The notes under the pieces: model-generated
The model's input: only the letters and a program-made list of their open reading frames with translations
Database searches by the model: none
What the model was told of the DNA's origin: nothing
Shown here: positions 2,798-64,000 of the stretch, in pieces
How the letters are laid out: the number at the start of each line of letters is the position of its first letter
Position numbering within the stretch: the stretch's first letter is position 1
Program-made: the position numbers and the translations under genes
Assembly: GCA_039621445.1 (NCBI GenBank)
Contig: CP154954.1
Span: 6,707,425 to 6,771,424, forward strand
Reading direction: 5' to 3'
DNA length: 64,000 bases
Source of the DNA: Euglena gracilis
Taxonomy: Eukaryota

Positions 2798-5700
2798 GTG
2801 ATGGTGCGGTCGGAGGCCAACACGGTGTGGAAGGCGATGGTGGACAACACACCCTCCATGCTGCGCCGCATCTTGCCCCGCCTCACTGCCCTGCTGCTCT
2901 CCTCCCTCAGCGCCGGGGAATGCGATCGACGGCAGGCGTGTTGTGTTTCCATGTGTGCATGCATGCGTGGTGTGTGTGTATGTGTGTGTGTGTGTGTGTG
3001 TGTGTGTGTATGCGTGTGTGCGTGCATACGTACATGTGTGCGTTTCATTGTTGTTGGATACACATTTCCAAGAAAAAAGTGTATGTTCTTTGCCTGAGCG
3101 AATGTTTTCGCAAACATGAAAGCCACGCCATCATGCCACCTGGAGCGAGTAGCCAAAACAGTCACACCGGGGTGTTCACCTCTTCGTTGGAAACAAGCAA
3201 TTGTCTTTCCCCAACACCCCAACTCAGCAGCAACACACACAACGCTCAAGAGCTGCTTTTTTTGCATGATGTCGGCTAACCTTCACAGCAACCACCCCAA
3301 ACTGCCAAGGGAAGTGATATCCCAGGATCAAACTTATAACTGCATTGTAAGGTTGTTACTGCAAATTGCTATTGATATTTTCATCTGAAATGTTGGTTGG
3401 ATTGTTTGTGAATTTAGGTTTGAGGAGCCCTAGGTATTTGGGCTGATGCTACATATGGCACATTTGCATTAAGAGAAAATGTCAGGGAACGTACGGCTTT
3501 ATTGTCACAAAGCAAAGAATGATCATGGCTTTCCACATATCATACAGTGCTTTCCCCCCTGTCCTTGACACGACTTGTCCATGACACCCCCAGTGTCAAC
3601 TGCACTTTCCCCATATTTAACAATAATGCACGTTTTTGACACATTTTGCTATTCCTGAGTTTGTCCACTTTTTTTTTGGACAGAACCATGGTTTTGAACT
3701 GTATTTATTTTGAATTTTGGTGGTTTTTGTAAAACATGAACGCTCCAATGATGCATTGTTGCTGCCATGTGGTGATTTGGCCCTGAAGCCAAGGTTCAGA
3801 TCACCTGGTTGTGGTCTATGGTACGGTGCCTGTCACACAGTGTGTCCATGACCCCCCCCGTTTCCATTGCATTTTCACCATATTTTGTGTCAAGGTCTGG
3901 GGGGCGTGCGGATTTTGTTTTTGAATTGAGAAGCAGCCCCCCCCCCCCCGTCCCCCCTCCCTTTCCCCTGTCCCCCCCTTCGCCCTTTCCCCACTCCCTC
4001 CTTTGCCCCAGGCGGCGGGCCGGGCCCTCGGGGAGATGGTGGGCAAGCTGGGCGACTCCGTGCTGCCGACGCTCATCCCGCAGCTGCACGCCCAGCTGGA
4101 GAGCGAGGAGGTGGACGTGCGGCACGGCGTGGCGCTGCGCAGGCCGGGCCCCCCCGTTCCCGCACAGTGCTCTGGCAGACCCCTACCTCCCACCCCCTGG
4201 CTTGTCTGAAAGTCAGTCACGACCGGTGCCCTGGGCAGGTTTGGGGACTGGGGTCCGGAGAATTTTGTGTGCTGTCTCTTTCACAGCGATAAAAAAAAAG
4301 CTCCCGACTGAGAACTATGGTGAGAGGGGACGTTTGCGAGGAACCCCAGGACGAAAATTCACTGCCTGGGCACACCAAGGAACGGGAAGTGGGAGAACGG
4401 GTGTTGCTGGGAGTCTGCCGTTGTTCCCCTGGCCCCAATTGGCTGACGGCGCGAGGCAGGGTTGAGGGGGGCGGAGGTCGGAAACCCTGAAAACCCCCCA
4501 TCCACCCCCCCCCCCACGCCCATGCGAGGAAAGGCGGCCGCTTGCCTCTCCATCCCCATGCGGCATACCCCACAAAAGGAGCGCCCCTGCCTGCCGCCGG
4601 GGCTCTCGGAGGTGATCCACGCGGCGAACCGCATGCAGCTGCAGGCGCACGCGGAGGCGCTGGTGCAGGCCATCCTGCAGGCCATCTGCGACGAGGAGGA
4701 GGAGATCCAGGAGGCCGCGGCGTACACCTTCGACCAGTTCTTCAAGGTGTGCCTGCCGTGGCGCCGACGGTGCAATGCCACCGACAGTGTGATGCCCTTT
4801 TGCAAACTAAATGTGTGATGGACGTTTTTGTTTGGAGGGATTTCATCTTCGTGATCGTCCTCCCCCCTGACGATCTGAATGTTGAAACGTGCGAATTTGA
4901 CGCCCGAAACTTTTGGGGGAGGGTCCAAGTGTTGAAGGAAAGGAATTGCAGGCATCCCTTCCCCCCCCCTTTCCCCCCTTTTGGAGTTCTATGAGGCTGG
5001 GAGTCTCTCTTTTGTGGCCCTGTCCTCCCACCTGACACCCGCCCCACGTCGCGCGCTGTTGAACTATTTTATGCTGCACCTTTGCGCATTCAGAGGCTAA
5101 CCCCAAATTGATAATTCCTGCGTTGGTCGAGCCACCCACGGTTTGAATTTCATTTTTTTTTGGTCTTTTTTACCCATTTTTTTGTAGCTTTTTCATTGAT
5201 AACGTGGGTCCATTGTAGAGAAGGAAAAGGTACCTCACCAACCTTGCCAGTTGCTCTTGCTGTGTATTTGTTTTTCTATCGTTTGGCCACCGTTTCTTTC
5301 ACATATGAGTGGTGCAGGGCATCGGCAAAGAACAATTGCAGACCCCAGGGATAGATGGGAAGGTAGGTGGTAGGGGGGATCGGGACCAGATGTTGGGAGG
5401 AGGTGTCCAGACGGCCCTCCTTGGCAGGTTCCAATAACAGCGAAATTTTTTTCTGCCGCTGGAAAATGAACAAAAAATGCCCCTTTGCCTCAGTTTTGAG
5501 CATATTGCACATTTCTTTGATCTTTTGGTTATATTTTCTTTGATCAAATATAAAAAGTATTTGAAATTTTTAAAAAATGAGTGTTTTAGGATTTATTTTT
5601 AAAGATAAATTGCAGTTTATCTTTGAAATTGCAGATCCTTCAACAGTTTGGCCTAGTATCTGGCCCTTTGCCCATCCATAAAGCCAAAATTTTTCCCGGC

Positions 5701-63142: not shown

Positions 63143-64000
63143 GCCCAGGGCCCAGGGTCTATGGGGCTGGCAGTGGCCATTGCTTCACAGGGCACCACTT
63201 GAGCCTCTTTTCTGACCCAAAAAAACCCACCACAGGGCACAACGGAGCGTTTGGGCCGGTAAAGGATCAGCAGCCCCATCCCTCACCAGGGAACAGTTGC
63301 ACTCCAGTGTATCCCCTGCAAAGGTACACAACATATTATTCCGAAGTGAAGGAAACGCTAGGTTTTTGGTATGCCACTGATGCCAACAGCTTTTTGATGC
63401 TAAACGCTCTTTGAATGGGATAAACCTCCCTCCTCAAATAAGGCCAACCAAAAAATGAAACAACCCCAAAAACAAACCCCCCCAGTCGATTTTCACCCAA
63501 AATCCATAATTGGACCGAGGATATTCACAGGAAAACCCAAGAATGGACTCCAGTAAAGCTGAGCCAATTTTTGTTGATGGAGAAGGATCCAGCTTTATGG
63601 ACCTCCTATTTTGAGCCTTACCACAGAGTTAATTTTAACCAACGCCCTCAGCAATAACCAAAAGTGGCTCCCTAAAGTTGAAGATAGAGTTGAATTTGAA
63701 GATCCCTTTTGAGATTTTCAGCAACGGGACCAAAATGTAGCCCAAGATCTTATGTTTTTGGGGGGTTGGTCGGAGGAAGGGGTCTTGAGTGCATACCAAC
63801 AATCGCTGTTGTGTGTTGTCGCTGTCGATGCTGTTGTGCCATTGGAAAGCAGAGAAAGATCACCCAAAAACATAAATGTGTCCCGTCAGAAGGGGGATTC
63901 TTATCACAAGGGGGGATAAATATCCACATTTTTTCTTCAATTTCCGCAATTTCCACAATTTCTGCAATTCGGTGCAATTTTCTTGCAATTTCTGCAGTTT

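What the first reader, a model, noticed from the sequence alone, without database searches (positions are those of the whole stretch)
4129..63150. Nonconventional intron borders match a CAG...CTG transposon plus an 8-bp target-site duplication (introner-like system)
Seen: most resolved nonconventional introns have the form 3 nt + paired end (usually CAG) ... (CTG) + 5 nt, so 8 nt lie outside the stem. The 8 nt before the stem often resemble the 8 nt after it: 4137-4598 GCGCTGCG/CCGCCGGG (5/8); 7583-8797 CCCGCAGC/CCCCCAAC (6/8); 11581-11794 GTACTCCC/GCGCTACC (5/8); 12466-13865 AAGATGTC/AAGGTGCC (6/8); 31279-31850 CTCCCAAC/CTCCTGCC (5/8); 37034-37230 CCCAGGTC/CGTTGGTC (5/8); 51893-52258 ACCGGGGC/AGTGGGAC (5/8); 56158-57042 GCCCTGTG/GCGCCGTG (6/8); 57145-57611 CCGGCGCC/CCAGCATC (5/8). 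Others match poorly (e.g. 53214-53576, 3/8). Intact CAG...CTG elements with perfect 8-bp TSDs occur in the same window. Known: euglenid nonconventional introns have this +4/-8 CAG/CTG stem, hAT elements make 8-bp TSDs and often end CAG...CTG, and a MITE-like origin has been suggested in general terms. Inference: splicing 3 nt before one TIR and 5 nt after the other removes the element plus exactly one TSD's worth of sequence. The insertion is then scarless in mRNA, which would explain the asymmetric 3+5 geometry.
Basis: partly seen in the sequence, partly recalled or inferred. Interest (0 to 1): 0.92.

Follow-up and report, generated by a model that had tools for sequence, protein, structure and literature searches.

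The report
Euglenid intron borders versus transposon footprints
The unusual introns in this Euglena-like DNA follow a cutting rule that is already published, and although small transposons with matching ends and 8-base footprints lie nearby, the intron borders themselves carry no such footprint beyond chance.

Summary
The coordinates and identities are as written, but the list is a picked upper tail. I re-derived junctions without looking at flanks, using transcript-derived proteins P0041, P0042 and P0043 and one relative, P0003. This gave 28 nonconventional introns. All 28 have a helix starting 3 nt inside the 5' junction. It ends 5 nt (25 introns) or 6 nt (3 introns) before the 3' junction. 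27 of 28 are followed by a purine. This is the splicing code published in 2025.

Their 8-mers match at a mean of 2.93/8, against 2.58/8 for unrelated intron pairs (permutation p 0.069). 4 of 28 reach 5/8, and registers -3, -6, +3 and +4 give 4 to 6. There is no peak at the 8-nt register.

Of the ten listed introns:
- five are confirmed;
- two are backed by an ortholog profile;
- one is inconclusive;
- one starts 12 nt too early (the corrected form scores 3/8);
- one is contradicted.

The intact elements are real. Four TIR elements have perfect 8-bp duplications, and a fifth has a 7-bp one. All five lie inside introns.

"3+5=8, so scarless excision" follows arithmetically from the published code. 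It fits a published strain-specific intron with 8-nt repeats. This window's intron borders do not show it.

The parts
4137..4598 (+). Nonconventional intron in the GCN1-like gene, CAG/CTG, flank identity 5/8
   Evidence: P0003 residues 114|115 are contiguous across it. PDB chain 8i9x_LR residues 1963|1964 are contiguous.
7583..8797 (+). Probable nonconventional intron (GCN1-like gene), CAG/CTG, 6/8. Not verified by a transcript.
   Evidence: Ranks 1st of 219 spliced candidates against the ortholog profile, tied with its 3-nt slide 7586-8800.
11581..11794 (+). Possible nonconventional intron (GCN1-like gene), CAG/CTG, 5/8. Junction inconclusive.
   Evidence: Ranks 5th of 252 candidates. It also passes the stringent structure filter.
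12466..13865 (+). Probable nonconventional intron (GCN1-like gene), CAC/GTG, 6/8. It contains element E3.
   Evidence: Ranks 1st of 232 candidates, 46.2 bits against 42.6 for the next.
13246..13524 (.). E3: a 279-bp inverted-repeat element. Its ends start CAGGG and end CCCTG, 11 of 12 complementary. The 8-bp duplication GTTCCTGC is perfect. It is nested in intron 12466-13865.
19086..19275 (.). E2: a 190-bp element. The first 11 terminal bases are complementary, starting CAAGC. The 8-bp duplication CTTGCCAT is perfect. It has internal 10-bp subterminal repeats.
21962..22243 (.). E5: a 282-bp element with ends 10 of 12 complementary (CAGGC... / ...ACGTG). The 8-bp duplication GTCAAAGT is perfect.
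25685..26010 (+). Nonconventional intron (zinc-finger-like gene), CAT/ATG, 2/8
   Evidence: Junction guided by P0043.
28115..29942 (+). Nonconventional intron, CAG/CTG, 2/8. It contains element E1.
   Evidence: P0043 residues 61|62.
28166..29494 (.). E1: a 1329-bp non-autonomous element. Its terminal inverted repeats are about 24 bp and start CAGGC. It has many subterminal TTTTTTAAGG-type repeats. The 8-bp duplication GAGAGCGG is perfect. No transposase domain was found.
   Evidence: Pfam was negative on its two ORFs.
30991..31225 (+). Nonconventional intron, GGG/CCT, 2/8
31279..31850 (+).
   Evidence: P0043 residues 120|121.
33468..33979 (+). Nonconventional intron, CAG/CTG, 2/8
34013..35011 (+). 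Nonconventional intron, CAC/GTG, 1/8
36178..37013 (+). Nonconventional intron, CAC/GTG, 2/8
37051..37443 (+). Nonconventional intron, CGG/CCG, 4/8.
   Evidence: P0043 reads through 37034-37050.
39890..40443 (+). Nonconventional intron, CAG/CTG, 3/8
42186..42764 (+). Nonconventional intron, CGG/CCG, 3/8
43889..44101 (+). Nonconventional intron, CAT/ATG, 4/8
44127..45129 (+). Nonconventional intron, GTG/CGC, 2/8
49778..50603 (+). Nonconventional intron (ankyrin/TRP-like gene), CGG/CCG, 1/8
   Evidence: P0041 residues 407|408.
50691..51342 (+). Nonconventional intron, CGA/TCG, 4/8
51893..52258 (+). Its ends are T-rich and loosely like those of E3.
52329..53104 (+). Nonconventional intron, CAG/CTG, 3/8
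53214..53576 (+).
53632..54980 (+). Nonconventional intron, CTG/CAG, 1/8. The 3' end could be 54983.
55111..56110 (+). Nonconventional intron, CAG/CTG with a 6-nt 3' spacer, 4/8
56158..57042 (+).
57157..57611 (+). Nonconventional intron, CAG/CTG, 3/8.
   Evidence: P0041 and P0042 both keep four residues encoded by 57145-57156.
57668..58398 (+). Nonconventional intron, GTG/CAC, 3/8
58541..59560 (+). Nonconventional intron, CAG/CTG with a 6-nt spacer, 4/8
59701..61479 (+). Nonconventional intron, CAT/GTG, 1/8. It contains element E6.
60144..60911 (.). E6: a 768-bp element. Its 16 terminal bases are perfectly complementary, starting CAGGG and ending CCCTG. It is flanked by a 7-bp direct repeat AAATCAA, which is 8 bp with one mismatch.
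61569..61730 (+). Nonconventional intron, CAG/CTG with a 6-nt spacer, 2/8
61813..62072 (+). Nonconventional intron, CAG/CTG, 1/8
62131..62867 (+). Nonconventional intron, CTG/CAG, 4/8

Best explanation
The window is euglenid nuclear DNA carrying three + strand genes:
- the C-terminal part of a GCN1-like gene;
- a cysteine-rich zinc-finger-like gene matched by P0043;
- an ankyrin/TRP-like channel gene matched by P0041 and P0042.

The introns are a mix of conventional GT-AG introns and many ordinary nonconventional introns. The nonconventional ones follow the published noncanonical splicing code. That code is a 3-nt spacer, a paired triplet (CAG/CTG in about half), an extended helix, a 5-6-nt spacer, and a purine at the start of the next exon.

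The splice positions are measured from the helix. This is shown experimentally in the literature and is inferred here from protein-level junctions.

The resemblance between the 8 nt before and after the helix is not a general property of these introns. The nine cases listed are the upper tail of a background distribution plus two misplaced junctions.

Separately, the window holds four young non-autonomous inverted-repeat elements with perfect 8-bp target-site duplications, and a fifth (E6) flanked by a 7-bp repeat. Four of the five start CAGG, and three end CCTG or CCCTG; E2 starts CAAGC and E5 ends ACGTG. All five sit inside introns.

That the two spacers (3+5) sum to the duplication length is a true and suggestive coincidence of numbers. 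This window gives no direct evidence that its introns descend from such elements.
For: - Geometry: 28 of 28 flank-blind nonconventional introns have 6-9 of 9 positions paired from +4. The 3' spacer is 5 nt in 25 and 6 nt in 3. CAG/CTG occurs in 13 of 28.
- Independent check: the exon-start base is a purine in 27 of 28. This feature was not used to place the junctions.
- Flank identity: mean 2.93/8 against a cross-intron mean of 2.58, p 0.069. 4 of 28 reach 5/8 or more, p 0.19. Registers -6, -3 and +3 give means of 3.18, 2.86 and 2.79.
- Non-specificity of the statistic: seven conventional GT-AG introns of the same gene score 4,3,5,5,4,5,3 in the same register. I attribute this to splice-site consensus alone.
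- Junction corrections are given.
- Elements with duplications.
- Almost no interspersed repeats are shared among introns or elements within the window.
- The code itself comes from PMC12501133 (sections 5, 8, 10, 11 and discussion passages read).
Against: - The CAG/CTG subset (13 introns) has a mean of 3.31 against a cross mean of 2.31, p 0.002, with 3 of 13 at 5/8 or more, p 0.04. However, register -6 gives 3.54.
Registers -3 and +3 then give 6 and 5. A minority of introns may therefore keep a real repeat.
- The GCN1-like gene could not be annotated without bias, because no transcript-derived protein was reachable.
- Junctions rest on proteins (paralogs for one gene), not on RNA reads. The exact nucleotide was set by the helix rule.
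- With 28 introns, the test would miss a relic signal present in roughly a tenth of introns.
Confidence: 0.7

Rival explanations
1. Nonconventional introns descend from CAG...CTG inverted-repeat transposons that make 8-bp duplications. The helix-measuring splicing machinery cuts 3 nt before one repeat and 5 nt after the other. An exonic insertion is therefore removed together with one duplication copy, and the mRNA is restored. Most introns here would be old, with decayed duplications. The few with 5-6 of 8 matches would be younger.
For: - Four elements with perfect 8-bp duplications, and a fifth with a 7-bp one, lie in 64 kb. Three of the five have CAG...CTG ends: E1, E3 and E6.
- E6 meets every item of the published code, including a purine after the 5-nt spacer.
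- The CAG/CTG subset shows a modest excess of flank identity.
- Milanowski et al. 2016 (PMC4770533, passages read) report that a strain-specific, recently gained nonconventional intron has eight-nucleotide direct repeats. These are longer than in the other introns they studied.
- Knock-ins of natural and synthetic introns splice precisely from a foreign exon (PMC12501133, sections 8 and 10 plus passages of section 6 read). The cut sites are therefore set by the intron.
Against: - There is no peak at the 8-nt register in 28 flank-blind introns.
- No intron here has 7 or 8 of 8 matches.
- No element is exonic.
- No sequence family is shared between introns and elements.
- 15 of 28 introns use triplets other than CAG/CTG.
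- A 6-nt spacer is tolerated (3 of 28 here, and in PMC12501133). That would leave a 1-nt scar.
- E1 and E3 would place a pyrimidine at the exon start.
Confidence: 0.3
2. Direct repeats at some nonconventional intron borders are footprints of intron gain through double-strand-break repair with microhomology or fill-in. They are not transposase staggered cuts. Repeat length would then vary, with no preferred 8-nt register.
For: - Milanowski et al. 2016 proposed this for the 8-nt repeat of the new gapC intron (PMC4770533, passages read).
- The absence of a single preferred register fits variable-length repeats.
- Short direct repeats are reported at 84.4% of all introns, conventional ones included (PMC12501133, section 5).
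Against: - It does not explain the terminal helix or its fixed distance from the junctions.
- The one documented young intron has exactly 8 nt. This is the length made by the elements seen here.
Confidence: 0.1
3. The likeness between element ends and intron ends is coincidental or convergent. Inverted repeats starting CAG are common in several transposon superfamilies. Any inverted repeat forms a helix. The 3+5 spacing is simply the ruler of the unknown splicing enzyme.
For: - Only 2 of 5 elements (E3 and E6) fit the hAT-type end motif, which I recall as YARNG.
- Merlin families with 8-bp duplications are already known in Euglena gracilis (PMC8101967, passages read), so 8 bp does not point to one superfamily.
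- The flank test is negative.
Against: - The exact equality of 3+5 with the duplication length of resident CAG...CTG elements.
- The published 8-nt repeat at a new intron.
Confidence: 0.2

Closest known systems
Euglenid nonconventional introns and the noncanonical splicing code 5'-N3-CDG ... CH'G-N5-6|R (Nomura et al., PNAS 2025, PMC12501133)
   Same: The 3-nt and 5-6-nt spacers, the paired triplet, the extended helix and the purine at the exon start are all seen in the 28 introns placed here.
   Different: 15 of 28 use triplets outside strict CAG/CTG. Some lie outside the CDG/CH'G rule (CCG/CGG, CAC/GTG, CAT/ATG, GTG/CAC, GGG/CCT). Three further junctions show neither a helix in register nor GT-AG.
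MITE-origin hypothesis for nonconventional introns (Milanowski et al. 2014, PMC3935182; 2016, PMC4770533; review in Mob DNA 2024, PMC11282704)
   Same: It rests on inverted repeats at intron ends and direct repeats at the junctions. The review already labels CAG/CTG as 'TIR' and the junction repeats as 'TSD-like'. The 2016 paper reports an 8-nt repeat at a new intron.
   Different: In the passages I read, none states that the two spacers sum to the duplication length so that excision would be scarless. Here I add concrete elements with 8-bp duplications, and a negative flank test.
Introners: transposons that create spliceosomal introns, using the duplication to supply a splice site. These works appeared only in search listings or reference lists and were not read.
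   Same: The idea that an insertion plus its duplication is removed exactly from the mRNA.
   Different: As I recall, introners are many near-identical copies removed by the spliceosome. Here there are no near-identical intron copies, and removal is non-spliceosomal by published accounts.
Non-autonomous hAT-like or Merlin-like DNA transposons with 8-bp duplications (Merlin in Euglena gracilis: PMC8101967)
   Same: An 8-bp duplication, short terminal inverted repeats, subterminal repeats and no coding capacity.
   Different: The ends start CAGG or CAAG, not the terminal GG described for Merlin. Only two fit the recalled hAT end motif. No transposase lies in the window, so the superfamily is open.

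Membership tests
Euglenid nonconventional introns (published splicing code) | Helix starting at intron position +4 (3-nt 5' spacer) | tested here: met
   28 of 31 non-GT-AG junctions had a helix in this register among the equally scoring positions, and 3 had none. This is partly circular, because the helix was used to fix the exact nucleotide.
Euglenid nonconventional introns (published splicing code) | 3' spacer of 5 nt (6 tolerated) after the paired triplet | tested here: met
   5 nt in 25 of 28 and 6 nt in 3 of 28.
Euglenid nonconventional introns (published splicing code) | Triplet CDG paired with CH'G | tested here: inconclusive
   CAG/CTG in 13 of 28, CGG/CCG in 3 and CTG/CAG in 2. The other 10 fall outside the rule.
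Euglenid nonconventional introns (published splicing code) | Purine at the first base of the downstream exon | tested here: met
   27 of 28. This was not used in placing the junctions.
Euglenid nonconventional introns (published splicing code) | Removal from RNA at these exact positions | not testable with these tools
Junctions rest on transcript-derived proteins.
hAT-superfamily non-autonomous elements | 8-bp target-site duplication | tested here: met
   Perfect in E1, E2, E3 and E5. It is 7 bp (8 with one mismatch) in E6.
hAT-superfamily non-autonomous elements | Terminal motif of the YARNG type (recalled, from no call) | tested here: inconclusive
   E3 and E6 start CAGGG and fit. E1 and E5 (CAGGC) and E2 (CAAGC) do not fit.
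hAT-superfamily non-autonomous elements | A related autonomous copy with a hAT transposase | not testable with these tools
   No genome is held. Pfam found nothing in ten long ORFs of the window, including those of E1.
Introners | Many near-identical copies serving as introns | tested here: not met
   A self-comparison of the window finds only 11 short repeat pairs outside tandem arrays, and no intron family. Only one window was tested.
Introners | Duplication recognisable at intron borders | tested here: not met
   Mean 2.93/8 against 2.58/8, with no peak at the 8-nt register.

The most novel reading that the evidence does not exclude
Euglenid nonconventional splicing is tuned to one class of resident DNA transposons. 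Because the enzyme cuts 3 nt outside one arm of the terminal helix and 5 nt outside the other, any CAG...CTG element with an 8-bp duplication that lands in an exon is removed together with exactly one duplication copy. Such insertions would be silent at birth and would become introns. The elements E1, E3 and E6 would be living members of that source population, and the published 8-nt repeat at a strain-specific intron would be its fresh footprint.
Probability: 0.3. Interest if true: 0.8.

Novelty: already known. Interest (0 to 1): 0.35.

Why it matters
If the link were shown, it would explain the odd asymmetric geometry of euglenid nonconventional splicing. It would also explain how about 70% of introns in a genome could arise without harming genes, which is a long-standing question. 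Published knock-in tools could test it directly.

As it stands, this window shows three things:
- The published code holds for natural introns of three genes.
- Resident elements with 8-bp duplications exist.
- Eyeballed border repeats are not evidence. The same statistic is equally high in other registers, and it is higher in conventional GT-AG introns.

Tried and rejected
RNA evidence:
- The look-up of sequencing runs listed no holder on record as RNA.
No reads were laid.
- No whole genome is held.

Annotation-free or model-based tests gave no usable result. The codon model could not place junctions.
- A dynamic-programming gene finder chained spurious introns.
- Code-compliant candidates around 38 exon pairs: 714 candidates, with 47 at 5/8 or more in register 0 against 22-43 in other registers.
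- With stem filters, 12 against 2-8.
- Pairwise optimisation.
- A mixture-likelihood test gave a log-likelihood ratio of about 0 at every register.

Inverted-repeat-first scans were dominated by chance pairs, with no bulk enrichment:
- 5498 pairs;
- 546 pairs.

Database searches:
- Pfam on ten GCN1-gene ORFs gave only generic HEAT hits.
- Pfam on ten long ORFs found nothing.
- PDB sequence searches worked for one junction and failed for exons around 12466-13865.
- The first homolog search returned only an unspliced genomic ORF, P0001.
- An ortholog profile mapped only 8 stretches of the GCN1-like gene.
- Shared 5-mers with orthologs were random, so I did not try to fetch the long GCN1 transcript.
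- The search of earlier findings returned nothing relevant.

Literature:
- Searches for an explicit '8-bp duplication = 3+5' statement found none (one search was badly framed).
- The library lacks many subscription papers, and supplements were closed. Table S3 of PMC4770533 and the supplementary figures of PMC12501133 on sliding distances may bear on this.
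Full report
**What the window is.** It is 64 kb at about 50% G+C, with no N and no whole genome held. All coding signal is on the + strand. Three genes can be named.
- From about 2.4 to 22.5 kb lies a HEAT-repeat gene. Its exons match a 2898-residue PDB chain (8i9x_LR) and five long orthologs in GCN1-like order. The name GCN1 is my reading.
- From 25.6 to 46.1 kb lies a cysteine-rich gene. It is matched over about 20 exons, at 72-100% identity in the listed exons, by P0043, which its source labels eukprot:EG_transcript_6538.
- From about 49.7 to 63 kb lies an ankyrin plus channel-like gene. It is matched exon by exon at 60-100% by two paralogous transcript-derived proteins, P0041 and P0042.

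These labels, and the intron types found, place the window in a Euglena-like euglenid.

**Check of the observation as written.** All ten listed introns have the stated form at the stated coordinates, and the 8-mer identities are exactly as given: 5,6,5,6,5,5,5,6,5,3. On this list the own-flank mean is 5.1/8. The 90 cross-intron pairs average 2.91, and shifted registers give 1.4-3.4. None of 100,000 permutations reached the observed sum.

**Getting junctions without looking at flanks.** RNA reads could not be used. Purely computational gene models were too imprecise.

Transcript-derived proteins solved this for two genes.
- For each pair of neighbouring exon matches, I scored every in-frame donor/acceptor pair by alignment of the joined translation to the protein.
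- Among the equally best positions, I took the one with a helix at +4/-6, or with GT-AG.
- Flank similarity played no part in the choice.

The results were:
- 15 nonconventional introns in the channel gene;
- 12 nonconventional and 7 conventional introns in the zinc-finger gene;
- 3 junctions with neither signature (30002-30925, 45165-45996, 51434-51791), which were left out of the counts;
- 1 intron of the GCN1-like gene (4137-4598), confirmed by P0003 (residues 114|115) and by the PDB chain (residues 1963|1964).

For the channel gene the guides are paralogs. Junctions there are good to the codon, and the exact base rests on the helix rule.

**Fate of the ten listed introns.**
- Confirmed: 4137-4598, 31279-31850, 51893-52258, 53214-53576 and 56158-57042.
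- Supported by an ortholog profile built from P0019, P0021, P0022, P0029 and P0039: 7583-8797 (first of 219 candidates, tied with its 3-nt slide) and 12466-13865 (first of 232).
- Inconclusive: 11581-11794 (fifth of 252).
- Shifted: 57145-57611. Both paralogs keep four residues encoded by 57145-57156, and a second N3-CAG lies at 57157. The intron is therefore 57157-57611, and its flank identity falls from 5 to 3.
- Contradicted: 37034-37230. P0043 reads straight through to 37050, and the intron is 37051-37443.

**Geometry.** In the 28 introns, 6-9 of the 9 positions from +4 are paired with the 3' arm. The 3' spacer is 5 nt in 25 introns and 6 nt in 3. The triplet is CAG/CTG in 13. The first exon base after the intron is a purine in 27 of 28, and this last feature was not used for placement.

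This is the code defined by knock-in genetics in Nomura et al. 2025. That work shows a strict 3-nt donor spacer, a 5-nt (6 tolerated) acceptor spacer, a required helix and an exon-start purine. Synthetic 50-nt introns built to these rules are spliced precisely from a foreign exon (PMC12501133; sections 5, 8, 10 and 11 and discussion passages read).

**The flank test.** For the 28 introns:
- The identities have the histogram 0,5,7,6,6,3,1,0,0 for 0 to 8 matches, with a mean of 2.93.
- The cross-intron mean is 2.58, and 8.1% of cross pairs reach 5/8 or more.
- The permutation p is 0.069 for the mean. It is 0.19 for the count of 4 introns at 5/8 or more.
- Register scan of means: -6 gives 3.18, -3 gives 2.86, 0 gives 2.93 and +3 gives 2.79. 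The other registers give 2.1-2.7.
- Introns at 5/8 or more: 4 at register 0, 6 at -3, and 4 each at -6, +3 and +4.

| Set | n | Own mean | Cross mean | p (mean) | Introns at ≥5/8 |
|---|---|---|---|---|---|
| Zinc-finger gene | 12 | 2.67 | 2.54 | 0.40 | 1 |
| Channel gene | 15 | 3.00 | 2.46 | 0.065 | 2 |
| All guided | 28 | 2.93 | 2.58 | 0.069 | 4 |
| CAG/CTG subset | 13 | 3.31 | 2.31 | 0.002 | 3 |
| Guided + 3 unverified GCN1 introns | 31 | 3.19 | 2.62 | 0.0047 | 7 |

Two of these rows look better than the rest, but neither shows a peak at register 0.
- For the CAG/CTG subset, register -6 gives a mean of 3.54.
- The last row adds a biased selection. There, register -6 also gives a mean of 3.19, and registers -3 and +3 have 6 and 5 introns at 5/8 or more.

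Seven conventional GT-AG introns score 4,3,5,5,4,5,3 in the same register. I attribute that to shared splice-site consensus. It shows that 5/8 is not specific.

With 28 introns, a relic present in about a tenth of introns would escape the test.

**The intact elements.** I started from 8497 exact, non-simple 8-mer direct repeats that lie 40-6000 bp apart. Four pairs enclose ends complementary at 11 of 12 positions, and three pairs at 10 of 12. For equal base frequencies I calculate about 0.02 expected at 11 of 12 or better.

After discarding a palindromic G/C motif and simple sequence, four elements stand.
- E1, 28166-29494: repeats of about 24 bp, many subterminal repeats, duplication GAGAGCGG.
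- E2, 19086-19275: duplication CTTGCCAT.
- E3, 13246-13524: duplication GTTCCTGC.
- E5, 21962-22243: duplication GTCAAAGT.
- Hits in shifted registers were these same elements seen through 1-2-nt border ambiguity, or simple sequence.
- E6, 60144-60911, has 16 perfectly complementary terminal bases and a 7-bp flank repeat.

All five lie inside introns. E1 is nested in the confirmed intron 28115-29942, E3 in 12466-13865 and E6 in 59701-61479. None encodes a recognisable transposase.

The 8-bp length fits hAT. It also fits Merlin, for which two families with 8-bp duplications are described in Euglena gracilis (PMC8101967, passages read). The superfamily is open.

**How it most likely works.**
- Shown in the literature: the splice sites of these introns are set by distance from the terminal helix.
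- Inferred here: the same rule places the junctions of 28 natural introns.
- Inferred: an element like E6 in an exon would be cut 3 nt before CAG and 5 nt after CTG, leaving one copy of its duplication.
- Not shown: that this has ever happened, or that the introns here descend from such elements.

[quoted passage not shown] Its authors read this as double-strand-break repair.

**What is already known.**
- A MITE-like origin was proposed in 2014 (PMC3935182, abstract and passages read).
- The 2024 review calls CAG/CTG 'TIR' and the junction repeats 'TSD-like' (PMC11282704, passages read).
- The 2025 paper repeats the MITE idea (discussion passage read).
- In five searches of the held library I found no statement that the two spacers sum to the duplication length. 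The library is incomplete and supplements were closed.

**Verdict.** The introns and their geometry are known. The elements are ordinary members of known kinds. The claimed relic duplications are not supported here. The arithmetic link is a neat, testable refinement of a published hypothesis. I put it at about 0.3.

Noticed in passing
window 28115-29942 with 28166-29494 inside; 12466-13865 with 13246-13524 inside; 59701-61479 with 60144-60911 inside: Young inverted-repeat elements are nested inside nonconventional introns. If transcribed, E6 and possibly E1 and E3 would themselves fit the splicing code, so introns within introns are conceivable.
   Followed up: partly
window 30002-30925, 45165-45996, 51434-51791: Three junctions fixed by transcript-derived proteins have neither GT-AG ends nor a helix in the +4/-6 register. 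The first has a 4-nt direct repeat at the junction and a helix with different spacing.
   Followed up: partly
window 11893-12318, also 10985-11171 and 16187-16459: Long GT/CA-type microsatellites lie within introns near candidate GT donor sites of the GCN1-like gene. None of these junctions is verified.
   Followed up: no
window 10345-10722 and 46868-48047: A 5-bp tandem array of about 75 copies and a 1.2-kb minisatellite with a 10/20-bp unit lie in non-coding stretches near genes.
   Followed up: no
window 12587-12638, 12622-13086, 13030-13087, 56855-56880: A G-run, GTCGAC, C-run palindromic motif recurs within introns. It may be another small repeat family. It produced false duplication-like hits in the scans.
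   Followed up: no
window 8104-8130, 19100-19230, 53808-53915, 58040-58120: A short AAAATGGCC-type unit recurs in several introns and makes up the inside of element E2.
   Followed up: no
window 55246-55547: A 302-bp element has 11 complementary terminal bases starting GG and flanks matching at 6 of 8. The terminal GG recalls the Merlin ends described in PMC8101967.
   Followed up: no
window 26085-28052, 31939-33434, 35128-36113, 37522-38911, 38946-39842, 40499-42091, 42858-43813: Seven conventional GT-AG introns are interleaved with twelve nonconventional ones in a single gene. This agrees with published reports that both kinds share genes.
   Followed up: partly
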